This document shows, in pieces, positions 1,215 through 15,668 of a DNA stretch of 64,000 nt. Source of the DNA: an uncultured Thermodesulfobacteriota bacterium (GTDB taxonomy: Bacteria; Desulfobacterota; WTBG01; CAIYCZ01; CAIRTM01); the NCBI GenBank assembly GCA_964566035.1, contig CAZMHH010000002.1, positions 64,013 to 128,012 on the forward strand. The letters are read 5' to 3'. Under the pieces are notes generated by a model, which was given only the letters and a program-made list of their open reading frames with translations, was not told the origin of the DNA and made no database searches. Within the stretch, counting starts at the first letter, position 1. Each line of letters starts with the position of its first letter. A program made the translations under genes and the position numbers.

Positions 1215-2405
1215 TTATTTATCTAAAAAATCAAACTCAAGCACATCATCTTTTGCTGAAACAAAGACGAAATAAAATCCGTCAATATGTGTCCTCAGAA
1301 GTCCTTCGCTTATCTCAGCCCCCGGCATTTTGCTTTTTGTACTTACTGATAATATGTCTTCAATTCTTTGAAAATTGTCAACTTTTAAATCAGGAAATAT
1401 GCTATTAAGGGTTTCGATAATCAATACTGCTGCTTTTTCTCTGTCTTTTGTCTTTAAATTAATATTTAAGATGTATTGATTAAAGTCTTTTGCATGGGAA
1501 TAGATCCTGTCAAAAACTTTTTCAGAAAAACCGTCACATGCTCTTGCTATTGCATCATTTATTGCAGAGTTTTCGTCAATATGTGTTCCAGGCATAAATG
1601 TTGAAATATGGGCTATTGGGTGTTCTGAGCTTGTATCAAAAACCTTTGCCTTGATATTGCATTGGATGTTCACGAGAGGACCGGAAGGCTGTTTCTCTGT
1701 TTTAACAAGCACTGCCTGGCCGGTGATCAGGTATTTTGCACCGTGATCAAGGGCTATCCTTCGGTACCGGGCGGCATCAGGCTCAATTTCTGAAATATTT
1801 ATCTCCTGTAATTTGTTCATTTCAATGTTAAAAGGATCTATTACTCTAAATCCTCTTTCCTTGAAAACAGAAGAAAGACGTGCTGTAATCTCACCGGGCA
1901 TATCAATTTCAATAATATCACCATGCCACCAGTAGTTGTAATCTTCATCAGCAACTCCTTTTTCGGCTAGCATGAAAAGTACAGAAGCAGGTTTCTGCTT
2001 TGAAGTCATTACCCCGACAGAGGAAAGCTCATCTGTCAATGCTTCTTCGTTGACAGATGCCTGAATGACTAATGTATATATGCCGAAATGTTGATAATCA
2101 TTGAGGATCCTGAAATTATTGAGATAAAAGCTGTAACTGTTGTAATAAATATCTTTCAATGTGTGGCTGTATTTTATAATATCATCTATTGAGATTCTGG
2201 CATAAACGGCACTCATAACAGCTTTTCTCTGTGCATCAAGGAGAGCTTCCTGTCTTGCTTTTGCAAGGTCTCCGTCATCAATTTTTGAAACACCATATGC
2301 GGTAAATTCCTTTGGCAGAATGTCCTGGGATAATAAAACAAAAGGGGTGAATAAAGTAAAAAAGAAAATAAAAATAGCTGCTTGTTTCATTAGTCTTTCT
2401 GTCAT
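1215..2405 (-). CDS. Hypothetical exported protein (N-terminal signal peptide), function unknown
   Basis: 396 aa. Hydrophobic N-terminus (AAIFIFFFTLFTPFVLLS). No recognisable catalytic motif. Lies in an operon-like minus-strand array between miaA and pgsA. Confidence 0.5.
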   Translation of the reverse strand: MTERLMKQAAIFIFFFTLFTPFVLLSQDILPKEFTAYGVSKIDDGDLAKARQEALLDAQRKAVMSAVYARISIDDIIKYSHTLKDIYYNSYSFYLNNFRILNDYQHFGIYTLVIQASVNEEALTDELSSVGVMTSKQKPASVLFMLAEKGVADEDYNYWWHGDIIEIDMPGEITARLSSVFKERGFRVIDPFNIEMNKLQEINISEIEPDAARYRRIALDHGAKYLITGQAVLVKTEKQPSGPLVNIQCNIKAKVFDTSSEHPIAHISTFMPGTHIDENSAINDAIARACDGFSEKVFDRIYSHAKDFNQYILNINLKTKDREKAAVLIIETLNSIFPDLKVDNFQRIEDILSVSTKSKMPGAEISEGLLRTHIDGFYFVFVSAKDDVLEFDFLDK

Positions 2406-2465: not shown

Positions 2466-3398
2466 TTAACTATTATTCAAGAAGTTTTTAACTTGGGTTT
2501 CAAGCAAATTAAAGCTTTCATCTGCTCTGAACCAGATAATTTCAGGGTCATTCCGAAACCATGTAATCTGGCGTTTTGCATATCGTCTGGTCTGCTGTTT
2601 TGCGCAATAGATAGCCCTGTCCAGAGAGAGACTGCCTTTTATATATTGAATAAGCTGAAGATAGCCTATGCTCTGCATGGGTTTGAGTTCCGGGGAATAT
2701 CCCATGTTAAGAAGTTTTTTCACCTCTTCAATAAATCCCTGTGCTATCATTTCGTCTACCCGCAGGTCAATTTTTCGGTATAGAACATCCCTGTCAAGAT
2801 AGAGGCCAATTTTTAAACAGTCATAAGGCGTATCGGAAAAATCGTGTTCAGAGTGTAGGCTGGAAATGGTTCTGCCTGTAAGGTGGAATACCTCAAGGGC
2901 GCGTATTATTCTGTGCCGGTCGCTATGGTTTATCCTTTGAGCCTGTATAGGGTCGATTTTTTTGAGTTTTTCAAAAAGATGTTCAAGACTTTCTTCTGCC
3001 ATGCTTTTTCTGAAATCTTTATCAGAGCCCGGAGAATAGAAAAGCCCTTTTGTGAGGGATTTTATATAGAGACCTGTTCCCCCTGCAACAATCGGAATTT
3101 TGTTTCTTTCTGAAATATCTTCAATGGTTTTTCTGCCGAGCTTCATATAGTCTGCTGCGCTGAAAGGCTCGTCAGGGTTGATTATCGAGAGAAGGTGATG
3201 GGGAACTTTTTCGGTTTGGGAAGCAGTGGGCTTTGAAGTGCCTATATCCATATATCTGTAAACCTGCATGGAATCGGCATTTATTATTTCAGAAGGAAAT
3301 TTTTCAGCTAAACGCAAAGCTGAAGCGGTTTTACCTGATGCAGTAGGACCGACCAGAATCACCACCTTTTGTGCTGTTAATTTGTTGATATTGGGCAT
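2466..3398 (-). CDS. miaA: tRNA dimethylallyltransferase
   Basis: 310 aa. P-loop GPTASGKT near the N-terminus, and the overall MiaA pattern (INADSMQVYR, DIGT.KP). Confidence 0.9.
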   Translation of the reverse strand: MPNINKLTAQKVVILVGPTASGKTASALRLAEKFPSEIINADSMQVYRYMDIGTSKPTASQTEKVPHHLLSIINPDEPFSAADYMKLGRKTIEDISERNKIPIVAGGTGLYIKSLTKGLFYSPGSDKDFRKSMAEESLEHLFEKLKKIDPIQAQRINHSDRHRIIRALEVFHLTGRTISSLHSEHDFSDTPYDCLKIGLYLDRDVLYRKIDLRVDEMIAQGFIEEVKKLLNMGYSPELKPMQSIGYLQLIQYIKGSLSLDRAIYCAKQQTRRYAKRQITWFRNDPEIIWFRADESFNLLETQVKNFLNNS

Positions 3399-3460
3399 GC
3401 ATATTCCTTACCGCAAACCTGTAATTATAGTTTTTTCTAAACCCTGTAACCGGAGTGTTC

Positions 3461-4297
3461 TCAAAGGGCTTTTTTAAGTTTTTCGAGTACCTCATAAGGA
3501 ACATTCAGGCTTCCTTTCCCTGAGCCAAGTTCAATGCCGTTTAAGTTCTCTCCATGGAAATCGCTGCCACCGGTAACAAGGAGTTTATATTTTTCAGCAA
3601 TCCCCTTGCAGATTTTTGACATACCCCTGTCGTGGTCAGAGTAGTATGCCTCAATTCCTCTTAACCCGAGCTCAGTGAGTTCTCTGACCACACTCTCAAG
3701 TTCAAGGATGGTTTCACAGTTGAGTGTTATAGGGTGACTCAAAACAGGTATTCCGCCGGCCTTAAGGATAAGCTTTATAGCTTCTTCAGGATTAAAACGA
3801 TATTTTTCAACATAAGCTTTTGCACCTTTTGTAAGATATTTTTCAAAAGCCTCTCTCGGGGTTTTAACATATCCTTTGTTGAGAAGAACCTGGGCAAAAT
3901 GAGGCCTGCCAACCTGACCGGTTCCAGATACAGCAACAACCTCTTCAATCTCAATATCTATTCCAAGTTGCTGGAGTTTTTTTATTATACACGGGTTTCT
4001 CTGTGCTCTTGAATCCTGGAGCAATCCTATTTTTTTCATAAATATTGAATCATTATAATCCATGTAGTATCCAAGTATATGCATGGTCCCTGTCTTCCAT
4101 TCTGCGCTTATCTCAATACCCGGAACAACTTCCATGTCGGTTTGTCTGCCTGCCCCTATTGCTTCATCCAGTCCTTCCACTGTGTCATGGTCTGTTACTG
4201 CAAGAGCCCGGAGCTTTTTTTTGACGGCATATCTTACAAGTTCTGTCGGTGAAAGTTTTCCGTCAGATGCTGTTGTGTGGGTGTGTAGGTCTATCAT
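3461..4297 (-). CDS. PHP-domain metal-dependent phosphoesterase (TrpH/YciV-like)
   Basis: 278 aa. Begins MIDLHTHTTASDG, the PHP His-x-His-x-T motif, with further conserved His/Asp residues. Confidence 0.8.
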   Translation of the reverse strand: MIDLHTHTTASDGKLSPTELVRYAVKKKLRALAVTDHDTVEGLDEAIGAGRQTDMEVVPGIEISAEWKTGTMHILGYYMDYNDSIFMKKIGLLQDSRAQRNPCIIKKLQQLGIDIEIEEVVAVSGTGQVGRPHFAQVLLNKGYVKTPREAFEKYLTKGAKAYVEKYRFNPEEAIKLILKAGGIPVLSHPITLNCETILELESVVRELTELGLRGIEAYYSDHDRGMSKICKGIAEKYKLLVTGGSDFHGENLNGIELGSGKGSLNVPYEVLEKLKKAL

Positions 4298-4300
4298 TTT

Positions 4301-5227
4301 TTACTCAAACTTATTTAAGGATTTTTTTGCAAAATTTATGTCTTTTTTAATCTGTTCAACGAGGCTGTCAACATTGCCGAATTTTTTTTCGCCCCGTATT
4401 CTCTTGACAAATAATATTGTTATTTCCTTTCCATATATATCTTCATTGAAATCAAAGATATGTGTTTCAACACAGAGTTTTTTCATTTTGAAGGTAGGGT
4501 TAAATCCTATGTTTACAACCCCTTTTTGCATTCCGGAGGGCGTTTTGATTCTTACCGCATAAACACCCTCGGCCGGGATCAGATCCTTGATATGGCTTAA
4601 GTTTGCCGTTGGAAATCCAATAGCTCTTTTTTCGCCGTGAATAACCGTTCCTGAAATACAGTAATCTCTTCCAAGAAGTTTTCCTGCCAGGGAAACCCTG
4701 CCCTGCTTTATGAGGTTTCTTATAGTAGTGCTTCGCACAGGGATGTTCTTAATAGAAATGTCCTGGGTAACATGAACCCGGAACCCGTATTTTGAACCGA
4801 GTTTCTGCAACAGCTCGACATTGCCTTCCCTTGCTTTTCCGAATGCATAGTCATTTCCTATAACAACATCTACTGGTTCAATGTTGCTGTGAATAATTTT
4901 TGCTACAAAATCCTCTGCCGTCATTTCAGCAAATATTTTTGTAAACTTTTCACAGACAAGATACTTTATTCCAAGCTCTCCAATTATAGAGGCTTTTTCG
5001 TCTAAGGTTGTAATTTTGGGAGGATCCTTGTCAGGACGAAGAATGTTTAAAGGATGAGGATCAAAAGTGTAGACAATCGAAGCACCGCCTGATTCTTCCG
5101 CTATCTGCATTACCTTTCTTAAAATAATCTGATGTCCTTTATGAACACCATCAAAATTGCCAAATGTTACAACCGGGTTATTTAAATTAATCCTGCGAAG
5201 ATTTTGGCTTCCTTTTATTATCTGCAT
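4301..5227 (-). CDS. ribF: Bifunctional riboflavin kinase / FMN adenylyltransferase
   Basis: 308 aa. N-terminal FAD-synthetase nucleotidyltransferase motifs (GNFDGVHKGH). C-terminal riboflavin-kinase motifs (GFPTANL, ETHIFDF). Confidence 0.9.
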   Translation of the reverse strand: MQIIKGSQNLRRINLNNPVVTFGNFDGVHKGHQIILRKVMQIAEESGGASIVYTFDPHPLNILRPDKDPPKITTLDEKASIIGELGIKYLVCEKFTKIFAEMTAEDFVAKIIHSNIEPVDVVIGNDYAFGKAREGNVELLQKLGSKYGFRVHVTQDISIKNIPVRSTTIRNLIKQGRVSLAGKLLGRDYCISGTVIHGEKRAIGFPTANLSHIKDLIPAEGVYAVRIKTPSGMQKGVVNIGFNPTFKMKKLCVETHIFDFNEDIYGKEITILFVKRIRGEKKFGNVDSLVEQIKKDINFAKKSLNKFE

Positions 5228-5423
5228 TATTTTTTCCAGACAGCAACAATTAACAAATCAACTACAAACACAATTGAAGTAGCTGTTCCAAAAGTTTTTT
5301 ATCATGCTCAAAAGCAGAGAGGTGTAAATGAAAAACCTTTTTTAAAAGTTAATAAAGCTTGACAAATACAAAGGTTTATTGTAAATGGAAAAGGATTTAA
5401 TTGCAACAAATCAAATTTAAAAT

Positions 5424-5507
5424 GCCGAAGTGGTGGAACTGGTAGACACGCAAGATTCAGGTTCTTGTGGTGGCAACACCGTAGGAGTTCGAGTCTCCTC
5501 TTCGGCA
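5424..5507 (+). tRNA. tRNA-Leu (anticodon CAG)
   Basis: Manual fold. 7-bp acceptor stem GCCGAAG/CTTCGGC. D-arm GTGG..CAC. Anticodon stem CAAGA/TCTTG with loop TTCAGGT (anticodon CAG). Long variable arm GGTGgcaaCACC, characteristic of Leu. T-arm AGGAG-TTCGAGT-CTCCT. Discriminator A. CCA is not encoded. Confidence 0.85.
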
Positions 5508-5586
5508 TATTTTTTCTTCTTTGTTTTGTCAGCCTGAAAAACTCAAAACCCCTAGCGGCTAAATTTTAAACTTTTATGGATATGTT

Positions 5587-5826
5587 ATGAAAATTAAAGT
5601 AAAGCTTTTTGCAACCCTTCGCCACCATCTCCCTCCAAATGCTGAAAACAGCGCCTGTGAGGTTGAACTCCCTGACGGGTCATGTGTAAACGCTGTGATG
5701 GAGTTGTTTAAACTGCCTCCTGAAATTCCCAAAATAATACTCATCCATGGCATACAGAAGGATGCAGAAACCGAACTAAAAGACGGAGATATTTTGAGTA
5801 TTTTCCCACCTATTGCCGGTGGATAA
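5587..5826 (+). CDS. MoaD/ThiS-family ubiquitin-like sulfur-carrier protein (C-terminal Gly-Gly)
   Basis: 79 aa. Ends ...FPPIAGG, the di-glycine tail typical of the MoaD/ThiS beta-grasp family. Its stop lies 3 nt before the next ORF. Confidence 0.7.
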   Translation: MKIKVKLFATLRHHLPPNAENSACEVELPDGSCVNAVMELFKLPPEIPKIILIHGIQKDAETELKDGDILSIFPPIAGG

Positions 5827-5829
5827 AAG

Positions 5830-6228
5830 ATGCAATCCTCCAAAGATGAAATAAGTGTTTCCTCCGGAGAAAACAGTTTTTTGCTCACTGCAAGGGCTCA
5901 GCTTATAGGCAGGGATATACTTGTTTCAATTTCTGGGGGCACAAGTCCTCATATAGGTTCTGTAGTTGTATCCACTCCACGCAAAAGCCTTAAAAATCGA
6001 GAAAAAACAAGTAGTACCTCATCTGTTGTAAATATTGAGGGACATAAAGATGAGGCAATAGCCCGTATGTTTTCTGAAAAAATTGCTTCTGTTTTTTTCC
6101 GTACAACAGTTGCTGCAGCCGGTTTTCATATAGACAATTTGAATGCTGAGGATATTGAAAATGTTATGTCAAATGCAGAAAAACTCTGTTCAAAAATAAT
6201 TAAAATTCTGAAGAGGAAAAGTTATTGA
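5830..6228 (+). CDS. Conserved hypothetical protein, translationally coupled between the MoaD-like gene and ubiX (possibly a UbiX-associated/prFMN-related accessory protein)
   Basis: 132 aa. No diagnostic motif recognised; contains SISGGTSPHIGSVVV. Its stop overlaps the ubiX TTG start by 4 nt. An LpdD-like chaperone role is inference only. Confidence 0.45.
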   Translation: MQSSKDEISVSSGENSFLLTARAQLIGRDILVSISGGTSPHIGSVVVSTPRKSLKNREKTSSTSSVVNIEGHKDEAIARMFSEKIASVFFRTTVAAAGFHIDNLNAEDIENVMSNAEKLCSKIIKILKRKSY

Positions 6229-6797
6229 AAAAAAATGAAATAATAGTTGCTATAACCGGCGCAAGTGGAGCGGTATACGGACTCAGACTGCTGGAATTTT
6301 TTAAAAATTCAGGATATGCCGCAACACATCTTATTATGAGCAGAACTGCCAAGTTTATTATGGAGACAGAAATTGACAGCTTTGCCGTTGAAAGGTCTAT
6401 CTCACTTGCTGACAGGGTTTATGACAATGAAGACCTTACAGCCTGTATTGCAAGCGGTTCTTATAAAACAGCTGGTATGATTATAGCTCCGTGCAGTGCA
6501 AAGACTCTCTCCTCAATTGCTCATGGATTTTCAGACTGCCTTATTTCAAGAGCTGCCGATGTTGTATTAAAGGAGAGAAGACGGCTTGTTATGCTTTTCA
6601 GGGAAACACCTTTAAACCTTATACATATTGAAAACATGGCTTCTGTTACAAGGATGGGCGGTATTGTGCTTCCACCAGTTCCTGCCTTCTATCAGAACCC
6701 CGAATCAATTGATGAAATAGTGAATCATTCAGTCGGAAAAGCAGTGGAACTTTTTTTTGAGAAAGATCATGGCCTTTTCAAAAAATGGAGAGAATAG
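6225..6797 (+). CDS. ubiX: Flavin prenyltransferase UbiX (prenyl-FMN synthase)
   Basis: 190 aa. N-terminus IIVAITGASGAVYGLRLLE and the overall flavoprotein fold of the UbiX/Pad1 family. TTG start at 6225. Confidence 0.85.
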   Translation: MKKNEIIVAITGASGAVYGLRLLEFFKNSGYAATHLIMSRTAKFIMETEIDSFAVERSISLADRVYDNEDLTACIASGSYKTAGMIIAPCSAKTLSSIAHGFSDCLISRAADVVLKERRRLVMLFRETPLNLIHIENMASVTRMGGIVLPPVPAFYQNPESIDEIVNHSVGKAVELFFEKDHGLFKKWRE

Positions 6798-6963
6798 CTG
6801 AAAGCCGTTGAGTAAAGACAATAAGCAATGAGCAGTGGATAATGCATTGTAACCTGCAGTATATTTTAACTGTTTTTCAAAAATCCTTGATTATTATTGA
6901 AAAATTTTGTATTTATTATAAGAATACCTTTAAGAAAAGATTTTTCCGGAGGCTTCAAACCCT

Positions 6964-7278
6964 ATGATAGAGCAAATAAAAAAAATAAAAGAAGCGGAGA
7001 ATAAAACCCTTGCACAAATTGAAGCTGCAAAAAAAGAGGCTGCCGCAATTATTTCCAAGGCTGAACAGGAAGGAAGAGACATTGTCAAAAAAGCGCTTGA
7101 GGATGCCGACAGAAAAGCTGCTGAAATAATTAAAACCTCAGCCTCTGAGGCGGATTCTCAGGCAGAAAAGATAATTTCCGATGGAATTGAAAAGGCAAAG
7201 CAGATCAGAGATAAGGTTGAAGGAAGAATTGAGCATGCATCTGCGATAATAATTAAACATGTTGCTGGAGATGCATAA
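6964..7278 (+). CDS. atpH: A/V-type ATP synthase subunit H (peripheral stalk, V-type 'G'-like)
   Basis: 104 aa. Highly charged Ala/Lys/Glu-rich coiled-coil protein. First gene of an operon with the archaeal order H-I-K-E-C-F-A-B-D. Confidence 0.7.
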   Translation: MIEQIKKIKEAENKTLAQIEAAKKEAAAIISKAEQEGRDIVKKALEDADRKAAEIIKTSASEADSQAEKIISDGIEKAKQIRDKVEGRIEHASAIIIKHVAGDA

Positions 7279-9234
7279 ATGTTCTACCCTGAACCGGTTC
7301 AGCGAGTTATTGTTTTATCACACAATTCAGTAAAACAGAAGGTTGTGAAAAAGCTTCACGAAATAGGGGCTGTTCAGATAAATGATTTTAGAAACAGGCT
7401 TTCAGATAAAAACTGGAGCGAACTATTATCCTCACATCCTGTTCCCCATGATATACGCACGATTACAACGCAATTGATGGCTGTAAACAGGCTTCTTGAC
7501 ATATTCAATATGGTTTCCCCAGAAGAAGAGGAAGGCTTCTTTAAAAAACTCTTTGCCCCCGATCCGCCTGAAAAAATAAAGGTGCAGGATATGCATGGAG
7601 AAAGTCTTCTGGAAAAAGTTTTAAAAACAGTTTCTCAAATAGATGAACAGATTGCAGAACCTCTTGAAAAAATGGAGAAAGCAGCTGCTGAAACAGCAGA
7701 GCTCAAGTCTCATACGCTTTTTTTTGAAAAAATCAGTTCAATTAACCTTCCTCTGGAACTTACAGGCGAAGGCTCTTTTGTAAGCACAGTTATTGGAATT
7801 ACACACTCAAAAGATTTTATTCCGTTGCAGAAAGAACTTGAAGAAGCAACAAACGGAATGTTTTTTTTCAGTCATCAAAGTGTTTCCGAAGAAGAGTCTT
7901 TCATAGCTATTGTCTGCTTGTCAAAGCATTTAGAGGATATAGGGGGGATTATCAGAAAATGGGATATTGAAAAAATGCCATCATCGGAATATTCCGGGAC
8001 TCCGGCAGATGTTGTGGCTGAAATTAGAAGGAAAGTTAATATAATAGGTGCTGTTCAGAGTGAATGCAGGGAAAAAATAAGGGCACAGGCTCTTAACTGG
8101 AGAAAACAGCTTAAAACCTTCAGGGAACTTCTTGCAATTGACAGGGAGCGTGCAGAGGTTTTTACAAACTTTACCCAAACAGAATCAGTAACAGCAATTC
8201 AGGGCTGGGTAGTAAAAGAAAATGCAGACAGTGTTATAAAAGAAATAGAAAAAACAGGAGAGGGGCTTGCCTTTGCGATTGCTGAAGAACCAGATGAACC
8301 ACCGGACAAACTTCCTGTTTCCCTTAAAAACCCCGGAATAATTAAACATTTTGAACTCCTGGTAAAGCTTTATGCACCGCCAAAGTATGACGAGGTTGAC
8401 CCTACGGTTTTAATATTTCCATCTTTTCTTTTTTTCTTCGGAATAATGATAACAGATGCCATGTATGGTCTTGCCGCACTTATCCTCGGTATTCTGATTC
8501 TTAGGGGTGGAGGTAAATACTACCCCCTTTTTAAAAGCGCAGGTGTGCTTTTAAGCCTTGGAGGGCTTTCAACGGTAATACTTGGTTCAATGACAGGAGG
8601 GTGGTTCGGCAACCTTATGGTTGAATATTTGGGGTTTACTTTTCTTGATAAACTTGTTGTCATCAATCCCATGGTTGATGTTGCCCCGTTTCTTCTTTTT
8701 GCGCTTGGTGTAGGACTTCTTCATTTAAATATTGGTATAGTAATAGGAATTATTAAAGATGTAAGGAGAAAGAATATACCGGAGTCTCTGAAAAATGTCT
8801 GGATATTCTTTCTGGAAATTTCCCTTGCCTTTTACTATTTTGAGCAGATAACACCTGCTGCTGTATTTGCTGTTCCTGCTCTGATACTTCTTTTGTACAG
8901 CGCAAAAGGGATGGCTCTTTTTGGTGTTACCGGTCTTCTAGGCGATACTCTCTCTTATGCTAGGCTTATGGCTCTTGGTCTTGTAAGCTTCGGGCTTGCT
9001 GTTGCCATAAATGCCCTTGCAGATATGACATTTGGAATAAGCTACATTGGATGGCTGATTGCAATAATTATTTTAATCGGCGGACATTCATTCAGTCTGC
9101 TTTTGAATCTAATGGGGGCTTTTGCACATGGCATCAGACTTCATTTTGTAGAATTCTTTGGAAAATTTTACAGTGGAGGCGGGGATGAGTTTAAACCATT
9201 CAAAATAAAGAGGAATATAACAGAGGTATATTAA
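7279..9234 (+). CDS. atpI: A/V-type ATP synthase subunit I (membrane a-subunit)
   Basis: 651 aa. Hydrophilic N-terminal half, then about 7 transmembrane helices in the C-terminal half containing the conserved arginine region. Position in the operon. Confidence 0.85.
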   Translation: MFYPEPVQRVIVLSHNSVKQKVVKKLHEIGAVQINDFRNRLSDKNWSELLSSHPVPHDIRTITTQLMAVNRLLDIFNMVSPEEEEGFFKKLFAPDPPEKIKVQDMHGESLLEKVLKTVSQIDEQIAEPLEKMEKAAAETAELKSHTLFFEKISSINLPLELTGEGSFVSTVIGITHSKDFIPLQKELEEATNGMFFFSHQSVSEEESFIAIVCLSKHLEDIGGIIRKWDIEKMPSSEYSGTPADVVAEIRRKVNIIGAVQSECREKIRAQALNWRKQLKTFRELLAIDRERAEVFTNFTQTESVTAIQGWVVKENADSVIKEIEKTGEGLAFAIAEEPDEPPDKLPVSLKNPGIIKHFELLVKLYAPPKYDEVDPTVLIFPSFLFFFGIMITDAMYGLAALILGILILRGGGKYYPLFKSAGVLLSLGGLSTVILGSMTGGWFGNLMVEYLGFTFLDKLVVINPMVDVAPFLLFALGVGLLHLNIGIVIGIIKDVRRKNIPESLKNVWIFFLEISLAFYYFEQITPAAVFAVPALILLLYSAKGMALFGVTGLLGDTLSYARLMALGLVSFGLAVAINALADMTFGISYIGWLIAIIILIGGHSFSLLLNLMGAFAHGIRLHFVEFFGKFYSGGGDEFKPFKIKRNITEVY

Positions 9235-9483
9235 TAAAGATGGACCGGTAAAAAGTATAGAAACAACCATATTGTTATTTCGACCGCAGGAATAAATCTC
9301 CTTATTTCAATATGTTACGAGATCTCTCACTTCGTTCGAGATGACAGCGGGGGACTTTTTACGGAACCATCAATAAAGGCTATAGATCTATTGGCTTAAG
9401 CTGTCAGGAAAACCGTATTGTTGTAGAAATCGAAAAAGTTATAAAGATATTAAAAAATAATCTATAAAAAAGGAGGTACAAAA

Positions 9484-9969
9484 ATGGTTGGTGAATTTAC
9501 CTTGGGACTCGGTCTTGCAGCATTGGGAGCCGGTCTTGCAATGGGAGTCTCTGCGATAGGCTCTGGACTTGGTGTTGGTATTGCCGGAGCAGCAGGAGCG
9601 GGTGTTATTGCAGAAGACCCAAAAAAATTCGGTCCTGTGCTTATTCTGCAGGCATTTCCTCAAACTCAGGGCATCTATGGTTTTGTTACCGCTGTGCTTA
9701 TTCTCATGGGAGTTGGACTTCTTGGCGGAGAAATAAGACCAATATCCATGGAACTTGGTCTCATCTGTCTTGGGGCAGGTCTCTCCTCAGCACTTGGAGG
9801 ACTAACATCAATTGGTCAGGGTATGACAGCCGGAGCAGCAATGGGATCTGTTGCAAAAAAACCTGAGACTCTTGGGCAGAATATGGTTCTGTCGGTTATG
9901 TCGGAAACATTTGCAGTGTTTGCGCTTCTTATCGCGATACTTATTCTTGTCGGCGCTAAGGTAATGTAG
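9484..9969 (+). CDS. atpK: A/V-type ATP synthase proteolipid subunit K (duplicated 2-hairpin c-subunit)
   Basis: 161 aa. Four Gly/Ala-rich helices (GxGxGxG packing). The carboxylate (ETFAVFALL) sits only in helix 4; helix 2 has Q at the equivalent site (PQTQGIYG). Strong RBS AAAGGAGG upstream. Confidence 0.85.
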   Translation: MVGEFTLGLGLAALGAGLAMGVSAIGSGLGVGIAGAAGAGVIAEDPKKFGPVLILQAFPQTQGIYGFVTAVLILMGVGLLGGEIRPISMELGLICLGAGLSSALGGLTSIGQGMTAGAAMGSVAKKPETLGQNMVLSVMSETFAVFALLIAILILVGAKVM

Positions 9970-10166
9970 GTCAGCAATTTAGATTGTAGTTTTTAGCTGG
10001 TAGCATGGCCTGTGCAGGCAGCAGTCGGGAATCAGCCTTCAGGGTCCAGAAAAACGAGCTGTTGAACTAAACTCGGGTATCAGCAAAACCTTTTTATGGT
10101 CGAAACCATAAATCTTCAATTTAAATTTATTTTATCAATTCATACTGTTTATGAAAGGACGGGCTA

Positions 10167-10826
10167 ATGTCAACAGATGGCGTCCAAAACATTATTAAGG
10201 AAATAGAGAAAACATCCGATTCAAGGGTATCTGAGCTGCTTTCAGATGCAAAAGCAAAGGCTGATGAAATAATACGCCTTGCAGGGCAGGATGCAACGGA
10301 GAAATCCGGGCAGGTTTTAATGAAAGCAGAACAGGAAGCAAAACGCAATACCCAGAGAATACTTGCAGAGGCAAGAATAAAAGCCAGACGGGACGAAATA
10401 GCTGTCCGTGAAGAACTTGTAAACAAAACCTTTGAAAAAGCCGCTGAATCTCTGCAGACAATAACAGCAGGGGAAAACCAGGGAAAAATATCCTATAAAG
10501 ATGTTCTTATAAGCCTTATTAAAGAGGCTGCCATATCTTCAGGTGCTGACAGGCTGGAAGTTTTTGCAAGAAAAGCAGACAACAATATACTGACCCCCGA
10601 GCTTTTTGACAATATTGCCAAAGATGTTCATAGAGAAACTAAAGTAAAACCTTCTCTTCAATTATCTGAAGAATCAATTACAGTAAACGGGGGAGCAGTT
10701 GTGCGCAGTGTTGACGGCAAGGTGCGGGTGGACAACACATTTGAAGCACGACTTGAAAGATTCAAGGAGACAATTAGAACCGAAGTGGCAATGGAACTGT
10801 TTGGCGGGGATATAAAAGATGAATGA
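10167..10826 (+). CDS. atpE: A/V-type ATP synthase subunit E
   Basis: 219 aa. Charged coiled-coil N-terminus with a globular C-terminus, in the pattern expected of subunit E, supported by operon position. Confidence 0.75.
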   Translation: MSTDGVQNIIKEIEKTSDSRVSELLSDAKAKADEIIRLAGQDATEKSGQVLMKAEQEAKRNTQRILAEARIKARRDEIAVREELVNKTFEKAAESLQTITAGENQGKISYKDVLISLIKEAAISSGADRLEVFARKADNNILTPELFDNIAKDVHRETKVKPSLQLSEESITVNGGAVVRSVDGKVRVDNTFEARLERFKETIRTEVAMELFGGDIKDE

Positions 10827-11940
10827 TGGCTTTCTGCTGCTTGTTCTGCTGCTTGCAATAGGGTTTCTGCTTCCGCTGCTTATATTTCTTGTGCGAAATT
10901 TGAGAAACATATTGCCCTATCTCTATATGACCGCACGTATCAGGGCAAAAGAAGCACGTCTTATAAAACAGGAAACCATGGATGATATGATAAACTCAGG
11001 ATCGATTGCAGAAATAGCATCTATACTTGAAAACTCAGAATATGCTTTTGCCATGCAGGGACTTGTTCTTGACAGTTCAGAATCAATTGAAGAGCTTCTT
11101 ACCCGTCAGACAGCGGATATTTACTCAGAGGTTGTAAGAATGATGCCTAACAAGGCAAAAAATGTTTTTATGTTTCTGCATCTCCAGTGGGATGTAAAAA
11201 ACCTGAAAACCATTCTAAGAGGAGTAAGAAAATCTCTTCCTTCAGACAGAATTATTTCAAAAATTATCCCTTTTGGCGAACTGGACACTGAACTTTTAAG
11301 GAAAATGGCCGAGGCGACTTCTGTGGAAGATATGCTTCCTCTGTTTGAAAATACAAGGTATGAAGCTTTAAGTCTTATGTTGGGAGCCTATGAGCAGGAC
11401 AGAAACCTTGTTGTTCTTGAGGCCTTGCTTGACAAGATTCATCTTGAAGAGATGTGGAAGACGGTCATATCTGACAGGGAACTCTTAGACCTTAAACCAA
11501 CATTTTCAGCCCGCATTGATGCTCTTAACCTGAAGCTTATTTTCAGGGCGAAAAGAGATCATCTGCTTTTCAGCGATATTGAAAAATATCTTATTTCAGG
11601 AGGTGATCTGCCTGATGGAGTTAAAACCGGTTTTGGGGAGCTGGATGAAATATCTGAGCTGGTTTCAGAGCTTGAAGAAACGGTTTTCTATAAACCTCTT
11701 ATGGATAGTCTGCAGGAATATCAGCAGACGGGCAGGCTTATTGTTCTTGAAAAAGCAATTGACGAGACAGCTCTTCTAATTGGAAAGGAAACAGCTGTAA
11801 AGATTCCTTACGGAATTGCCCCCCTTCTTGGTTTTCTCTCCATGAAGGAGACAGAGGTAAGAAATATAAGGGCAATTTCCCGCTCAAAAGAGTCGGGTCT
11901 GCTGCCGGAAAACATAAAGCAGCTTGTTTTAAGGGTATAA
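10819..11940 (+). CDS. atpC: A/V-type ATP synthase subunit C (V-type 'd')
   Basis: 373 aa. The conserved N-terminal region (YLYMTARIRAKEARL) begins at the internal Met at 10927. The ORF from 10819 overlaps the atpE stop and adds a 36-aa hydrophobic extension, so the true start may be 10927. Confidence 0.75.
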   Translation: MNDGFLLLVLLLAIGFLLPLLIFLVRNLRNILPYLYMTARIRAKEARLIKQETMDDMINSGSIAEIASILENSEYAFAMQGLVLDSSESIEELLTRQTADIYSEVVRMMPNKAKNVFMFLHLQWDVKNLKTILRGVRKSLPSDRIISKIIPFGELDTELLRKMAEATSVEDMLPLFENTRYEALSLMLGAYEQDRNLVVLEALLDKIHLEEMWKTVISDRELLDLKPTFSARIDALNLKLIFRAKRDHLLFSDIEKYLISGGDLPDGVKTGFGELDEISELVSELEETVFYKPLMDSLQEYQQTGRLIVLEKAIDETALLIGKETAVKIPYGIAPLLGFLSMKETEVRNIRAISRSKESGLLPENIKQLVLRV

Positions 11941-11942
11941 AA

Positions 11943-12254
11943 ATGAATATAGTTTTTATAGGTGATAAGGATACGGGCACAGGCTTCAGGCTTGCTGGCT
12001 TGAAAAATGTGTTTACAGCTCAATACGGTCAGGAGAATCTGAAGGCTCTTCTTTCTGATGATTCAACAGGAATTATAATTGTAACAGAGAGGTTTGCAGA
12101 AAGTAACAGGGCTGTTATAAATGATCATAAAGCATCTAAAAGGCAGATCCCTCTGATTGTGGAAATACCCGATATAAAAGGTCAAATGGAGAACCGTAGA
12201 GACTTTATAAGCGAACTTATAAAGAGAGCTGTTGGAACTGATATATCAACTTAA
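11943..12254 (+). CDS. atpF: A/V-type ATP synthase subunit F
   Basis: 103 aa. MNIVFIGDKDTGTGFRLAGL... is the classic subunit F start (I.V.GD.D...GFRLAG). Confidence 0.85.
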   Translation: MNIVFIGDKDTGTGFRLAGLKNVFTAQYGQENLKALLSDDSTGIIIVTERFAESNRAVINDHKASKRQIPLIVEIPDIKGQMENRRDFISELIKRAVGTDIST

Positions 12255-12480
12255 GAGATGTTGAACTGATAAGCTGTTATGCAAAACCTTAAGACCAGGA
12301 TAGAAATTTTTTGCTTGTAACAAAATTCTTTTCGTGGTTGTTTTCATAATCGACAATTTGAGCCTGAAAAAGCAGCAAACAGAACTCAGGAAAAGAAAAC
12401 AGCTGTTAACTTGGAAGAATTGAGCGGGTTTAAGCAATAAACCAATGATAATCAAATTTAATCTTTTTAAGGAGGGATAA

Positions 12481-14253
12481 GTGTTGCCCGAATACAAAGA
12501 AGGTAGGATAAAAAGTATAGCAGGTCCTCTTGTCATAGCAAAAGAGATGAAGGGCTGTCAGATGTATGAGGTTGTCAGGGTCGGTGAGGAAGGTCTGATG
12601 GGTGAAACCATAAGACTTGACGGTGATGAGGCATATATACAGGTATATGAGGACACTTCAGGTCTAAAACCCGGAGAAAAGGTTGCACGAACAGGCGAAC
12701 CTTTGTCGGTTGAGCTGGGTCCTGGCATTATAAAAAATTTCTATGACGGTATTCAAAGACCCCTTCTTCTGATCAAAGAGAAGGCAGGAGACTATATAAA
12801 AAGAGGTATTTATGTACCCGGTCTTGATCCGGATACCCAATGGGAGTTTACCCCTTCTGTTGAAAAAGGCGTTGAGCTTGAAGAAGGAGATATAATCGGT
12901 TCTGTGCCTGAGTCAAAGGTAATATCCCATAAGATAATGATCCCACCCGGAAAATCAGGAAAACTGGTTGAAATAAAATCAGGCTCTTTTACTGTAAATG
13001 ATGAAATTGCAGTTATAGAAAAAGACGGTGAAAGATTTTCCATTATAATGAAACAGAATTGGCCTGTCCGTAAAGACAGACCATTCAAGAAAAAGGTTGA
13101 CCCTAATGTACCGCTTCTTACAGGACAGAGGATTTATGACACATTTTTTCCTATAGCAAAAGGAGGTACTGCTGCAATACCAGGAGGGTTTGGCACAGGT
13201 AAAACCGTAAGTCAGCACCAGGTTGCAAGATGGGCTGACTCCCAGGTAGTTGTATACGTAGGATGCGGAGAACGCGGAAATGAGATGACAGAGGTTCTGG
13301 ATACTTTTCCTGAAATTGACGACCCTAAGACAGGGTATAAACTTATGGAAAGGTCAACCCTTATTGCCAACACTTCAAATATGCCAGTTGCAGCGCGTGA
13401 AGCATCCATCTACACAGGTGTTACAATTGCTGAATATTACAGGGATATGGGCTATGATGTTGCCATAATGGCAGATTCAACTTCACGCTGGGCTGAAGCT
13501 CTGAGAGAAATCTCCGGAAGACTTGAAGAGATGCCCGGAGAAGAGGGTTATCCTGCATATCTTGCAACAAGAGTGGCAAGTTTTTATGAGAGAGCAGGAA
13601 GGGTTATAACCATGGGTGCAGAAGAAAGATTTGGTTCGGTCTCAATTATTGGTGCTGTTTCCCCCCCCGGTGGAGATCTTTCAGAGCCTGTCTCGCAGAA
13701 CACACTCAGGGTTGTCAGTTCCTTTTGGGCTCTTGACTCTACCCTTGCAGACAGACGCCATTTTCCTGCAATAAACTGGTTAAGGAGTTACTCTCTCTAT
13801 CTGGACTTTACAAAGAGCTGGTATGATGATCATATATCCTCCAGGTTCAGGCAGCTTAGAAACAGGGCAATGGTTGTGCTTCAGGAAGAGTCTGAGCTTT
13901 CCGAAATTGTTCAGCTCATAGGACCCGATGCACTTCCTGAGCGAGAAAGACTCACTCTTGAAATAGCGCGAATGATAAGGGAAGACTTTCTGCAGCAGCA
14001 TGCTTTTCACAATGTTGATACGTTCTGTCCACTTGAAAAACAGAACCTTATGCTTGATACAATAATGCTTTTCTACGATCTGGCAGTTAATGCCCTTGAA
14101 AAGGGAACAGGAATTGAGGCGATAACCAAAGTTCCTGTTGTTGATGAAATAGCCAGAATGAAATATATAGAAAACCAGGATTTTGCAACACAGCAGGAGA
14201 AGCTTGTGGAAAGGCTCAGAGAACAATTCAATTCATTAGGAGAGTCAAAATGA
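12481..14253 (+). CDS. atpA: A/V-type ATP synthase catalytic subunit A
   Basis: 590 aa. Walker A GGFGTGKT. Carries the non-homologous insertion typical of A-subunits. GTG start preceded by AAGGAGGG. Confidence 0.95.
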
Positions 14254-15647
14254 AAGCTGATATAAAAACCAGAGAATACAGAACAGTAAAAGAGGTAGCC
14301 GGTCCACTGATGGTTGTTGAAGGTGTTGATGGGGTTGCTTATGGAGAGGTTGTTCGGATACGAACCGGCACAGGAGAGGAACGCACAGGACAGGTTCTTG
14401 AGTCAAGGGAAGGGCTTTCCATTGTTCAGGTATTTGAAGGAACCTCAGGTATAGACACACTTGATACAACTGTCCGGTTTACCGGCGATACCATGAAACT
14501 TGCAGTTTCAAAAGAGATGGTTGGCAGGTTTTTTGACGGACTTGGAAGACCTATTGACGAAGGACCAGAAATAATATCAGATATTCGCCTCGATATTAAC
14601 GGAGCTCCGATAAACCCTACTGCACGTGAATTTCCAAACGAATTTATCCAGACAGGCATTTCAACAATCGATGGCATGAACACCCTTGTCCGTGGTCAGA
14701 AACTGCCTATATTTTCAGGTTCAGGTATGACACACAATGAACTGGCAGCCCAGATTGCGAGACAGGCGCGAGTATTGAGCTCTGATGAACCTTTCTCTGT
14801 AGTGTTTGCTGCAATGGGAATAACAAGTGAGGAAGCAAACTTTTTTATGCGTGATTTTGAAAGAACAGGGGCAATGGAACAGATTGTAGCTTTCATAAAT
14901 CTCGCAGATGACCCTGCAATAGAGCGCATCATAACCCCCAGAATGGCTCTTACAACTGCCGAGTTTCTTGCTTTTGAATGTGATATGCACGTTTTAGTTA
15001 TGCTCACTGACATGACCAACTACTGTGAAGCATTAAGAGAAATAGCGGCTGCAAGGGAAGAGGTTCCAGGAAGAAGAGGATATCCGGGTTATATGTACAC
15101 AGACCTTGCAACAGCTTATGAAAGAGCAGGCAGAATCAGAGGCAGAAAAGGATCCATTACACAGATGCCTATACTTTCAATGCCTGATGATGATATAACT
15201 CACCCTATACCAGACCTTACTGGTTATATTACAGAAGGTCAGTTTGTTCTCACGCGAGATCTTCACAGAAGAGGGGTATATCCGCCGGTTGATGTTCTTC
15301 CGAGTCTTTCCCGTCTTATGAATCAGGGAATAGGCGAGGGCAAGACAAGGGAGGATCACCTGGGTGTTTCAGATCAGTGCTACGCGGCTTACGCTGAAGG
15401 AAGGGATGTCAGGAATCTGGTGGCAGTTGTAGGTGAAGAGGCTCTTACCGAGCGAGATCGAAAGTACCTGGAATTTGCCGATGCTTTTGAGAGAGAGTTT
15501 GTTACACAGCAAAGAGATGACAACAGAACCATACAGGAAACACTGGAACTTGGCTGGGATCTTCTCAGTGTTCTTCCGGAATCAGAGCTTAAGAGAATTG
15601 ACCAGAAACAGATAGAAAAATATCATCCAAAACACAGAAAACAATAA
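14250..15647 (+). CDS. atpB: A/V-type ATP synthase regulatory subunit B
   Basis: 465 aa. B-subunit fold without a canonical P-loop ([18 protein letters not shown]). Overlaps the atpA stop (ATGA). Confidence 0.95.
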
Positions 15648-15668
15648 AGATTCGGAGAATTAATTTAA

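What the first reader, a model, noticed from the sequence alone, without database searches (positions are those of the whole stretch)
5587..6797. MoaD/ThiS-like Gly-Gly protein and an unknown 132-aa protein translationally coupled to UbiX, with no UbiD or E1 enzyme nearby
Three ORFs are stacked with 3-nt and overlapping junctions: a beta-grasp sulfur-carrier-like protein ending in GG, an uncharacterised protein, and the prenyl-FMN synthase UbiX. UbiX normally pairs with UbiD-family decarboxylases. A ubiquitin-like GG protein in this context is unexpected. It could indicate a sulfur-carrier or thiocarboxylate step, or a protein-conjugation function, linked to prenylated-flavin cofactor supply. 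The middle protein might instead be a prFMN chaperone.
Basis: partly seen in the sequence, partly recalled or inferred. Interest (0 to 1): 0.5.

Follow-up and report, generated by a model that had tools for sequence, protein, structure and literature searches.

The report
Ubiquitin-like partner of prenyl-flavin chaperone operon
Three tightly coupled genes encode a small Gly-Gly ubiquitin-fold protein, the LpdD chaperone for prenylated flavin, and the flavin prenyltransferase UbiX; this trio recurs in many sulfate-reducer-type bacteria, and in some the first two genes are fused, which suggests an undescribed helper in how strict anaerobes load this cofactor.

Summary
On the + strand, 5587-5826 (79 aa, MoaD/ThiS fold, ends AGG), 5830-6228 (132 aa) and 6225-6797 (190 aa, UbiX) are stacked with a 3-nt gap and a 4-nt overlap.

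The "unknown" middle protein is an LpdD-family prFMNH2 chaperone. It scores 114 bits on Pfam PF21758. Its AlphaFold model matches LpdD crystal structures, and both functional histidines are conserved.

No UbiD, ThiF/MoeB E1 or MoaE lies in the 64 kb.

The trio is not a chance adjacency. The same order (MoaD-like, LpdD, UbiX) occurs in 30 loci from Thermodesulfobacteriota/"delta" MAGs and metagenomes, despite about 43-59% median identity and changing flanks. In a related LpdD clade the MoaD-like and LpdD genes are fused: 10 protein clusters, and one identical fusion protein on 15 contigs from several samples.

The GG protein's wider family consists of E1-linked sulfur carriers. They sit at the 3' end of tungsten aldehyde-oxidoreductase operons or next to ThiF, CysK or sulfite reductase.

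Best reading: this is a prFMN supply operon whose LpdD has acquired a dedicated ubiquitin-fold partner. What that partner does chemically is unresolved. The main rival is that it is a pterin or cysteine sulfur carrier that merely shares the operon.

I rate this a new variant of a known system. I found no paper that describes it.

The parts
5587..5826 (+). ubl: a 79-aa MoaD/ThiS-fold (beta-grasp) protein ending in FPPIAGG. It belongs to the clade with the signature ...PKIILINGxQK...FPPI[AS]GG that sits upstream of lpdD.
   Evidence: Pfam ThiS 27.3 bits (cut-off 22.5). NCBIfam SAMP1, moaD_arch and moaD all fall below their cut-offs. The best PDB sequence match is P. furiosus MoaD 1vjk, E 3e-7. 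There are 204 homologues. Orthologues sit upstream of LpdD in 30 loci. [quoted passage not shown]
5830..6228 (+). lpdD: a 132-aa LpdD-family prFMNH2-binding chaperone with a proteasome-assembly-chaperone-like fold.
   Evidence: Pfam PF21758 113.9 bits (cut-off 27). PDB LpdD entries 8p4w/8pzh/8po5, E 3e-7. AF2 model pLDDT 92.9, pTM 0.87. Top Foldseek hits are LpdD crystal structures, TM 0.74-0.85, followed by Pba3/4 and PAC3/4. H41 and H72 align to the PHIG and HKD motifs of L. plantarum LpdD and are taken here as its H35 and H61. Both are invariant in the family alignment. PMC10865409 reports that H35A abolishes prFMNH2 binding.
6225..6797 (+). ubiX: a 190-aa flavin prenyltransferase with a TTG start that overlaps the lpdD stop by 4 nt.
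   Evidence: NF004685 238 bits (cut-off 188), TIGR00421 224 bits (cut-off 108.9), Pfam Flavoprotein 143 bits. The overlap is read directly from the sequence. The same -4 overlap between lpdD and ubiX occurs in most triad loci.
5810..5832 (+). ubl-lpdD junction: a 3-nt gap after the TAA stop, with the Shine-Dalgarno-like GGTGGA formed by the Gly-Gly codons.
   Evidence: Sequence. The equivalent gap is 1-22 nt in 21 of 30 triad loci. No promoter-like or terminator-like site lies between the genes.

Best explanation
The three ORFs form one operon (ubl-lpdD-ubiX) that makes and hands over prenylated FMN in an anaerobic bacterium of the Desulfobacterota type.

- UbiX prenylates FMNH2 with dimethylallyl phosphate to give prFMNH2.
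- The 132-aa LpdD-family chaperone binds this oxygen-sensitive product and delivers it to a UbiD-family (de)carboxylase encoded elsewhere in the genome.
- The 79-aa Gly-Gly beta-grasp protein descends from the E1-activated MoaD-like sulfur carriers found in tungsten aldehyde-oxidoreductase operons and next to ThiF. In this lineage it has been recruited as a dedicated partner of LpdD.

Shown: the identities of the three proteins, the operon structure, the conserved three-gene order, and the natural MoaD-like::LpdD fusions.

Inferred: that the two proteins act together physically, most likely through the flexible C-terminal Gly-Gly tail. Two modes are possible.
(a) The tail acts as a non-covalent cap or adaptor at the conserved His/Asp site of LpdD and controls the holding and release of prFMNH2. 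I favour this slightly, because the GG motif stays invariant in fusions where it is internal.
(b) After activation by a distal ThiF-type E1, and after processing in the fused forms, the protein acts as a thiocarboxylate or acyl-persulfide that takes part in oxygen-independent maturation of the cofactor.
For: LpdD identity rests; UbiX identity. Translational coupling is visible.

Conservation of the trio:
- All 12 Thermodesulfobacteriota/'delta' loci found with an LpdD profile carry the MoaD-like gene immediately upstream of LpdD.
- Fifteen further metagenome loci and P0024 show the same arrangement.
- Gaps from ubl to lpdD are mostly 1-22 nt, and from lpdD to ubiX mostly -4.
- Median pairwise identities are only 52% (Ubl), 43% (LpdD) and 59% (UbiX).
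- Flanking genes differ between loci and are housekeeping genes.

The Ubl stays with whichever prFMN gene remains. L012 and P0285/L130 have Ubl plus LpdD without UbiX. L038 has Ubl-UbiX-UbiD without LpdD.

Rosetta-stone fusions of MoaD-like::LpdD:
- The P0243 clade has 10 clusters at 66-100% identity, with FPPIAGG invariant.
- The identical 213-aa fusion protein P0243 is encoded on 15 contigs; the four places shown come from four different samples.
- An independent fusion, P0285, lies in the typical speD/ctpA-envC-ftsX neighbourhood.

All MoaD-associated LpdDs (triad and fusion clades) fall in one clade, apart from the Firmicutes LpdDs linked to UbiD/UbiX.

The physiological oxidant and helper for prFMN maturation in strict anaerobes is stated to be unknown (PMC13040415), so a role is vacant.
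Against: - No interaction or chemistry has been demonstrated.
- The AF2 model of the natural fusion gives two folded domains joined by a low-confidence linker (residues 78-83, pLDDT below 50), with pTM 0.60. It shows no confident interface, although it is a monomer model of a protein that is normally dimeric.
- The GG protein's wider family is tied to other jobs. Relatives sit at the 3' end of 4Fe4S-AOR-FAD oxidoreductase operons in 33 loci, next to ThiF and near sulfite reductase and a PALP-domain (CysK-like) gene, or stand alone.
- A copy 95% identical to a triad copy sits in an Rrf2-Ubl-CysK context (L050 against L046).
- LpdD-UbiX(-UbiD) modules of Firmicutes, and two archaeon-labelled loci, lack any MoaD-like gene. 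The Ubl is therefore not a general requirement of LpdD.
- The window has a tungsten AOR (56159-57988) with no MoaD-like gene beside it, so the organism needs a MoaD-type carrier anyway.
- The NJ tree of the 79-aa proteins is poorly resolved, and triad-linked copies are not cleanly monophyletic.
Confidence: 0.5

Rival explanations
1. Operon passenger. The GG protein is simply the organism's MoaD-type sulfur carrier, for tungsto-/molybdopterin (as in AOR) and/or for thiocarboxylate-dependent cysteine or homocysteine synthesis. It happens to be transcribed with lpdD-ubiX, perhaps so that cofactor-maturation genes are regulated together. It has no joint chemistry or contact with LpdD or prFMN.
For: - Relatives end AorABC-like operons in 33 loci. 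AorD/AorE in Aromatoleum are described as MoaD-like putative W-cofactor maturation factors (PMC6365974).
- ThiF E1 is adjacent in the sister clade and lies near the AOR-operon relatives.
- A near-identical paralogue sits next to CysK.
- The window has an AOR without its own MoaD-like gene, and only one MoaD-family ORF in 64 kb.
- The convergent ctpA-like neighbour is also conserved in 9 of 12 loci. This shows that plain inherited synteny persists at this evolutionary distance.
Against: - In-frame MoaD-like::LpdD fusions are maintained over 66-100% identity, with the GG motif invariant, and occur in two lineages. A passenger gene would not be expected to show this.
- The Ubl is retained next to LpdD when UbiX is absent, and next to UbiX-UbiD when LpdD is absent.
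- No E1, MoaE or Moco riboswitch lies at any triad locus.
- The protein fails the canonical MoaD equivalog models.
Confidence: 0.3
2. Protein conjugation. The GG protein is a SAMP/Urm1-like modifier that is covalently attached, via an E1, to LpdD, UbiX or the client UbiD. The attachment would regulate or target them.
For: - The protein has a C-terminal Gly-Gly on a ubiquitin fold.
- Its best NCBIfam hit is SAMP1, although below the cut-off (33.9 against 60).
- Some members carry residues after GG or are synthesised as fusions, like ubiquitin precursors.
Against: - No E1, JAMM peptidase or E2-like gene lies at any of 30 triad loci or in the window.
- The SAMP1 model is not met.
- The sister clades have classic sulfur-metabolism contexts.
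Confidence: 0.05
3. Re-purposed LpdD. In this clade the LpdD-like protein no longer handles prFMN. Instead it serves with the MoaD-like protein in pterin (W/Mo cofactor) sulfuration or delivery, acting as a MoaE-like partner.
For: - Ubl::LpdD fusions and Ubl-LpdD pairs exist without UbiX.
- The Ubl family is associated with AOR operons.
Against: - lpdD overlaps ubiX by 4 nt in most triad loci.
- The histidines implicated in prFMNH2 and metal binding in LpdD are invariant (PMC10865409).
- One locus has Ubl-UbiX-UbiD.
- LpdD has no fold similarity to MoaE.
Confidence: 0.05

Closest known systems
lpdB-lpdD (UbiX plus the LpdD chaperone) of Lactobacillus plantarum gallate decarboxylase (PMC10865409)
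   Same: An LpdD-family protein is co-transcribed with UbiX. The client UbiD (LpdC) is encoded elsewhere. The fold matches, and the His residues corresponding to H35 and H61 are conserved.
   Different: The gene order here is lpdD then ubiX, preceded by a MoaD-like Gly-Gly protein. That protein is absent from the Firmicutes modules (0 of 16 loci). This LpdD belongs to a separate clade, only 21-22% identical to L. plantarum LpdD in the structure-based alignment.
AorD/AorE, the MoaD-like proteins at the end of the aorABCDE tungsten aldehyde-oxidoreductase operon of Aromatoleum aromaticum (PMC6365974)
   Same: The window protein belongs to the same broad sequence family as small Gly-Gly beta-grasp proteins that end AorABC-like operons in 33 metagenome loci. 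Direct comparison with AorD/AorE themselves was not done. ThiF is often nearby in those loci.
   Different: The window gene is not in an AOR operon (the AOR lies 50 kb away). It sits upstream of lpdD-ubiX with no E1 nearby, and it carries a clade signature (PKIILINGxQK, FPPIAGG).
MoaD-MoaE molybdopterin synthase (established knowledge; PDB 1fm0 appears among the hits)
   Same: A small GG-tailed beta-grasp protein is paired with a roughly 130-150-aa partner that binds a reduced tricyclic cofactor phosphate. This offers a precedent for a tail that inserts into the partner's ligand site.
   Different: LpdD has a proteasome-assembly-chaperone-like fold, not the MoaE fold. The canonical MoaD models are not met. 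No sulfur is known in prFMN.
Ubiquitin-like sulfur carriers made with C-terminal extensions and processed by JAMM peptidases (CysO/Mec+, QbsE/QbsD; from my own knowledge, not checked here)
   Same: Some members here carry residues after GG (L010, L044/45, P0327) or are fused to LpdD. One close paralogue sits next to CysK.
   Different: No JAMM peptidase or E1 is encoded at these loci, and processing has not been shown.
PhdC, the prFMN maturase of the phdABC operon (PMC13040415)
   Same: It is a small accessory protein encoded with UbiX that helps UbiD activation. It illustrates that prFMN systems recruit lineage-specific helpers.
   Different: PhdC is an HpaC-like flavin-reductase-fold enzyme that needs O2 or ferricyanide. 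It is unrelated in fold and sequence to the proteins here.

Membership tests
LpdD prFMNH2 chaperone (Pfam PF21758) | Family HMM scores above the gathering threshold | tested here: met
   113.9 bits against a cut-off of 27, covering 15-127 of 132 aa.
LpdD prFMNH2 chaperone (Pfam PF21758) | Pba3/4-like (PAC) fold as in the LpdD crystal structures | tested here: met
   AF2 pLDDT 92.9. Foldseek ranks 1-6 are LpdD entries 8pzh/8po5/8pzo/8p4w, TMq 0.69-0.76 and TMt 0.74-0.85, followed by Pba3/4 and PAC3/4.
LpdD prFMNH2 chaperone (Pfam PF21758) | Conserved metal-site and prFMNH2-site histidines (H35, H61 of L. plantarum LpdD) | tested here: met
   H41 (GGTSPHIG) and H72 (GHKDE) align to the PHIG and HKD motifs of L. 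plantarum LpdD and are invariant in 26 homologues. Their roles are taken from PMC10865409.
LpdD prFMNH2 chaperone (Pfam PF21758) | Co-transcription with UbiX | tested here: met
   4-nt overlap with ubiX. The same holds in most triad loci.
LpdD prFMNH2 chaperone (Pfam PF21758) | Binds prFMNH2 and assists UbiD activation | not testable with these tools
   This needs biochemistry. No UbiD lies within 64 kb.
UbiX flavin prenyltransferase | Curated family models score above cut-off | tested here: met
   NF004685 238.1 bits against 188; TIGR00421 224 against 108.9. CoaBC and CoaC reach only 27-30 bits.
MoaD/ThiS sulfur-carrier superfamily | Beta-grasp ThiS-family domain with a C-terminal Gly-Gly | tested here: met
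   Pfam ThiS 27.3 bits against 22.5. The protein ends in AGG. The homologous domain of the fusion P0243 folds as a beta-grasp-sized unit with strands and helices at pLDDT 79-95.
Canonical MoaD (molybdopterin synthase small subunit) | Equivalog HMMs TIGR01682 and NF008347 score above cut-off | tested here: not met
   21.7 bits against 66.15; 17.4 against 94. moaD_arch scores 33.6 against 49.5.
Canonical MoaD (molybdopterin synthase small subunit) | MoaE and MoeB partners in the genome or neighbourhood | tested here: inconclusive
   None in the 64-kb window or within 8-10 kb of 30 triad loci. The rest of the genome is not available.
E1-activated sulfur carrier (thiocarboxylate formation) | Adenylation and thiocarboxylation by a ThiF/MoeB-type E1 | not testable with these tools
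   The only support is indirect. The sister clade (about 48% identity) lies directly upstream of a ThiF gene, and ThiF lies near the AOR-operon relatives.
AorD/AorE-type MoaD-like proteins of AOR operons | Location at the 3' end of a 4Fe4S-AOR-FAD subunit operon | tested here: not met
   The window gene follows a tRNA-Leu and precedes lpdD. The AOR is at 56159-57988 with no MoaD-like neighbour.
SAMP/Urm1-type protein modifiers | SAMP1 equivalog model scores above cut-off; E1 and JAMM genes in context | tested here: not met
   NF041918 scores 33.9 bits against 60. No E1 gene (direct ThiF search) and no JAMM-type neighbour among the conserved flanking genes annotated.

The most novel reading that the evidence does not exclude
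In strictly anaerobic Desulfobacterota, a ubiquitin-fold Gly-Gly protein is an integral third component of the prFMN system. Once charged by an E1 as an acyl-persulfide or thiocarboxylate, or docked through its tail into LpdD's His/Asp metal site, it would provide the missing oxygen-independent step that converts or hands over LpdD-bound prFMNH2 to UbiD enzymes. For example, it could serve as the two-electron acceptor. This would be a new job for the MoaD/ubiquitin fold and an answer to how prFMN is matured without O2.
Probability: 0.12. Interest if true: 0.85.

Novelty: new variant of a known kind. Interest (0 to 1): 0.58.

Why it matters
UbiD/UbiX enzymes are widespread, and they are used in biocatalysis for (de)carboxylation and CO2 fixation onto aromatics. 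Their activation is the bottleneck.

LpdD is the only described prFMNH2-binding chaperone and PhdC the only described prFMN maturase. [quoted passage not shown]

This finding is a conserved ubiquitin-fold partner of LpdD, sometimes fused to it, found in strict anaerobes. It gives a concrete candidate that can be tested. The experiment is short: express Ubl, LpdD and UbiX with an anaerobe's UbiD.

If instead the Ubl is only a sulfur carrier that shares the operon, the result still sharpens annotation. The 'hypothetical' 132-aa protein is LpdD. The 'MoaD/ThiS family protein' belongs to an AOR- and ThiF-associated carrier family, not to canonical MoaD.

Tried and rejected
It was repeated with 10 sequences.
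- An exact look-up of the window's GG protein was not on record, and the cluster look-up gave no names. The organism is therefore known only by analogy to Thermodesulfobacteriota/'delta' MAG hits.
- Searches for a Moco, FMN or other riboswitch upstream of the triad found nothing. The window region 4000-8000 held only tRNA-Leu. Eighteen related loci had no family hit at gathering score.
- The promoter and terminator scan was uninformative.
- AF2 of the natural fusion, used as a proxy for a complex, gave no confident inter-domain packing (pTM 0.60). It neither supports nor excludes an interface.
- The afdb50 fold library was unavailable.
- The NJ tree of the 79-aa proteins is too poorly resolved to decide orthology against paralogy between triad-linked and stand-alone copies.
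- Literature searches for UbiX plus MoaD, UbiX plus 'sulfur carrier protein', and LpdD plus UbiX found no description of this association.
- I considered that ORF3 might be an HFCD/CoaC-type cysteine decarboxylase acting on a Ubl-Cys adduct. I rejected this because the UbiX models score 224-238 bits against 27-30 for CoaBC and CoaC.
- I considered that ribF and miaA upstream might be functionally linked, since they relate to FMN and dimethylallyl supply. Their adjacency is not conserved in other triad loci.
- I could not test genome-wide co-occurrence with UbiD, MoaE or E1.
Full report
**1. Observation**

- 5587-5826: 79 aa, ATG start, ending ...FPPIAGG.
- 5830-6228: 132 aa, ATG start, 3 nt after the first stop. 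The Gly-Gly codons form a GGTGGA Shine-Dalgarno-like sequence.
- 6225-6797: 190 aa, TTG start overlapping the previous stop as TTGA, preceded by GAGGAA.

A tRNA-Leu(CAG) lies 78 nt upstream, at 5423-5508. No promoter-like or terminator-like site separates the three genes.

**2. What the three proteins are**

ORF3 is UbiX. It scores 238 bits on NF004685 (cut-off 188) and 224 bits on TIGR00421 (cut-off 108.9). The related CoaBC and CoaC models reach only 27-30 bits.

ORF2 is not an unknown protein. It is an LpdD-family protein.
- It scores 113.9 bits on Pfam PF21758 (cut-off 27). A precomputed annotation names this model 'LpdD_chaperone'.
- phmmer finds the Lactobacillus plantarum LpdD crystal structures at E 3e-7.
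- An AlphaFold2 model (pLDDT 92.9, pTM 0.87) has those LpdD structures as its six best Foldseek hits (TM 0.69-0.85). The proteasome-assembly chaperones Pba3/4 and PAC3/4 follow.
- H41 and H72 align to the PHIG and HKD motifs of L. plantarum LpdD, which I take to be H35 and H61. PMC10865409 links these two histidines to metal and prFMNH2 binding. Both are invariant in 26 homologues, together with H100, D102 and an S-T-S-S motif.

ORF1 is a MoaD/ThiS-fold protein (Pfam ThiS 27.3 bits against 22.5). It fails every specific model: moaD 21.7 against 66, PRK11130 17.4 against 94, moaD_arch 33.6 against 49.5, and SAMP1 33.9 against 60.

**3. Surroundings in the window**

- Upstream on the other strand lie ribF, a PHP-domain protein, miaA, an unknown lipoprotein-like ORF and a CDP-alcohol phosphatidyltransferase.
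- Downstream lies a V/A-type ATPase operon.
- The rest of the window holds two-component and sigma-54 regulators, ETF, cytochromes, acetyl-CoA synthetase, a MoxR-VWA pair, RmuC, a radical-SAM/SPASM protein, and an Hdr/Mvh-like cluster that ends in a tungsten-type aldehyde:ferredoxin oxidoreductase at 56159-57988.
- phmmer with UbiD seeds and ThiF seeds finds nothing in the window. A MoaD-family HMM finds only ORF1.

So 'no UbiD or E1 nearby' is true for the 64 kb. This is not odd in itself. In L. plantarum, lpdB/lpdD also lie far from lpdC (PMC10865409).

**4. Is the trio conserved?**

I scanned one genome per species with an LpdD profile and obtained 30 loci.
- All 12 loci from Thermodesulfobacteriota/'delta proteobacterium' MAGs have a 77-79-aa MoaD-like gene directly upstream of lpdD on the same strand. 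Eleven of the 12 have ubiX directly downstream.
- A metagenome scan with the MoaD-like alignment added 15 more such loci. One further homologue, P0024, is also in a triad.
- Counting the window, that makes 30 loci. The ubl-to-lpdD gap is 1-22 nt in most of them, and the lpdD-to-ubiX junction is usually a 4-nt overlap.

The proteins are well diverged. Median pairwise identity is 52% for the Ubl, 43% for LpdD and 59% for UbiX.

Flanks vary and are housekeeping genes: rumA-like methyltransferase with radical SAM, speD, the ctpA-envC-ftsX group, and an H+-pyrophosphatase. None of these loci has a UbiD, an E1 or a MoaE within 8-10 kb.

Informative variants:
- L012 has Ubl-LpdD but no UbiX.
- L038 has Ubl-UbiX-UbiD but no LpdD.

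Exceptions within the same Ubl clade:
- L050 reads Rrf2 regulator - Ubl - CysK - COG1900-like protein. Its Ubl is 95% identical in protein and 91.5% in DNA to the triad copy of L046 from the same study, with unrelated flanks.
- L048 has no LpdD in the 0.8 kb available downstream.

**5. What family does the GG protein come from?**

- The closest non-triad relatives (about 48-54% identity, from Desulfobacterales and Syntrophobacterales) either stand alone or lie directly upstream of a 250-aa ThiF-type E1. In one case they follow a PALP-domain (CysK-like) gene, a sulfite reductase and a YHS-domain gene.
- More distant relatives (74-84 aa, E 1e-13 to 1e-19) sit at the 3' end of a conserved operon. 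The order is 4Fe-4S protein, then AOR, then an FAD/NAD oxidoreductase, then the MoaD-like gene, in 33 loci. ThiF is often nearby.
- This is the aorABC-type operon. Its trailing MoaD-like genes (aorD and aorE in Aromatoleum) are regarded as putative tungsten-cofactor maturation factors (PMC6365974).

By descent, then, the window protein is an E1-type sulfur carrier. The branch in front of lpdD has lost E1 proximity. It carries its own signature (PKIILINGxQK, FPPI[AS]GG).

**6. Gene fusions**

An exhaustive profile search found 1,790 LpdD-family representatives at E up to 1e-3. Among the best 150 are two proteins in which a MoaD-like domain ending in FPPIAGG runs straight into an LpdD domain: P0243 (213 aa) and P0285 (218 aa).
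- P0243 defines a clade of 10 fusion clusters at 66-100% identity. FPPIAGG is invariant in all of them, followed by C or S.
- The identical P0243 protein is encoded on 15 contigs, and the four places shown come from four different samples. It is not a sequencing artefact.
- Close unfused relatives have a separate LpdD that starts at the Met present in the fusion linker. Their separate MoaD-like proteins carry residues after GG.
- P0285 is only 36% identical to P0243. It sits in the speD / ctpA-envC-ftsX neighbourhood typical of the Desulfobacterota triads, again without ubiX. It is seen on one contig only.
- The window Ubl is 42% identical over its full length to the N-domain of P0285, and 39% identical over 49 residues to that of P0243.
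- In an LpdD tree, the triad, fusion and near-fusion sequences form one clade, separate from the Firmicutes LpdDs. Ten of the 16 Firmicutes loci have a UbiD next to UbiX and LpdD, and none has a MoaD-like gene.

**7. Interpretation**

The LpdD-UbiX pair is a prFMN synthesis and hand-over module of a known kind, and I hold that with high confidence.

What is new is the conserved ubiquitin-fold gene. Several facts argue that it works with LpdD and does not merely ride in the operon:
- operon order is conserved despite divergence and changing flanks;
- the genes are translationally coupled;
- the Ubl is retained with whichever prFMN gene remains;
- above all, in-frame fusions recur.

How it works is inference. 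The fusion model shows two folded domains joined by a disordered GG-containing linker, with no confident interface (pTM 0.60).

I slightly favour a non-covalent cap or adaptor role for the GG tail at LpdD's conserved His/Asp site. The precedent is the MoaD tail inserting into MoaE. My reason is that GG is conserved even where it is internal.

The alternative is an E1-charged thiocarboxylate or acyl-persulfide role in O2-independent maturation. That role is open according to PMC13040415, which states that the physiological oxidant in strict anaerobes is unclear. It would require processing of the fused forms.

**8. Main rival**

The Ubl may simply be the cell's pterin or cysteine sulfur carrier. 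Supporting this:
- the family's AOR, ThiF and CysK contexts;
- the near-identical CysK-linked paralogue;
- a window AOR that lacks its own MoaD-like gene;
- the absence of the Ubl from Firmicutes and archaeon-labelled LpdD modules;
- the convergent ctpA neighbour, also conserved in 9 of 12 loci, which shows that inherited synteny alone can persist at this distance.

The fusions are the chief argument against it. I put the partner model at about 0.5, the passenger model at about 0.3, and conjugation or a re-purposed LpdD at about 0.05 each.

**9. Novelty and limits**

Full-text searches found no paper linking UbiX or LpdD with MoaD/ThiS-type proteins. The LpdD paper itself does not mention MoaD, ubiquitin or genomic neighbourhood.

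I rate this a new variant of a known system (LpdD-UbiX).

I could not examine whole genomes. Co-occurrence with UbiD, MoaE, E1 and JAMM genes is therefore untested. The short Ubl tree is poorly resolved. No riboswitch gives a regulatory clue.

Noticed in passing
P0296 and P0209 (proteins; not in the window): Two other natural LpdD fusions turned up. P0296 is LpdD fused to a type-1 isopentenyl-diphosphate isomerase (Nudix) domain, assigned by eye from the sequence. P0209 is UbiX fused to LpdD. The first hints at a link between LpdD and the supply of the dimethylallyl donor.
   Followed up: no
L019:3901-7729 and L016:2-3157: In two MAG contigs labelled archaeon/Nanoarchaeota, LpdD sits between a UbiD-family decarboxylase and an AcnX-type dehydratase large-subunit-like gene, with UbiX about 0.4 kb further on. 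This resembles the archaeal mevalonate pathway (phosphomevalonate dehydratase plus anhydromevalonate-phosphate decarboxylase) with its own prFMN chaperone. No MoaD-like gene is present, although these LpdDs nest inside the triad clade.
   Followed up: partly
L050:1353-4302: The gene order is Rrf2 (CymR/IscR-like) regulator, MoaD-like, cysteine synthase CysK, then a 'methanogenesis marker 16'/COG1900-like protein. This looks like a CysO-type thiocarboxylate route to cysteine or homocysteine. It uses a Ubl 95% identical to one that precedes lpdD in L046.
   Followed up: partly
window 2466-5508: miaA (a dimethylallyl-transferring enzyme, 2466-3398, - strand) and ribF (an FMN/FAD-forming enzyme, 4301-5227, - strand) lie just upstream of the triad and diverge from it. 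tRNA-Leu(CAG) at 5423-5508 lies between them and ubl. Both enzymes handle the two precursors of prFMN, but the adjacency is not seen in the 12 other genome loci.
   Followed up: partly
window 49454-58486: An HdrD-like, HdrA-like, MvhD-like, Fe-S, FAD/NAD-binding cluster is followed by a tungsten-type aldehyde:ferredoxin oxidoreductase (56159-57988) and a small ferredoxin. No MoaD-like gene lies next to this AOR, unlike the AorABC-type operons of relatives.
   Followed up: partly
window 25519-28518 (- strand): A 999-aa protein combines an N-terminal MinD/ParA-like ATPase domain (residues 3-260) with a C-terminal sensor histidine kinase. This is an unusual architecture.
   Followed up: no
window 6964-16328: A complete V/A-type ATPase operon (G/H-like, I, K, E, C, F, A, B and D subunits) lies immediately downstream of ubiX in a bacterium of the Desulfobacterota type. 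Only the G-like, I, A and B subunits were scanned against Pfam; the other subunits are assigned by eye from the ORF list.
   Followed up: no
L010:9691-9957; L044:7777-8028; L045:7408-7659; P0327: Some MoaD-like proteins of the lpdD-linked clade carry residues after the Gly-Gly: +CRQIKKDLA, +SK, +SK and +CPENTCRN. Cys is often the first extra residue, as it is in the fusions. If a free GG is needed, these would require C-terminal processing.
   Followed up: partly
window 28673-30499 and 1215-2405 (- strand): Two sizeable ORFs (608 aa and 396 aa) have no Pfam family at E up to 1e-3.
   Followed up: no
L120:6001-6387: An LpdD homologue (P0143, 42% identical) stands alone between an ABC transporter and ychF, with no UbiX, UbiD or MoaD-like gene within 6 kb. 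LpdD genes therefore also occur as orphans.
   Followed up: no
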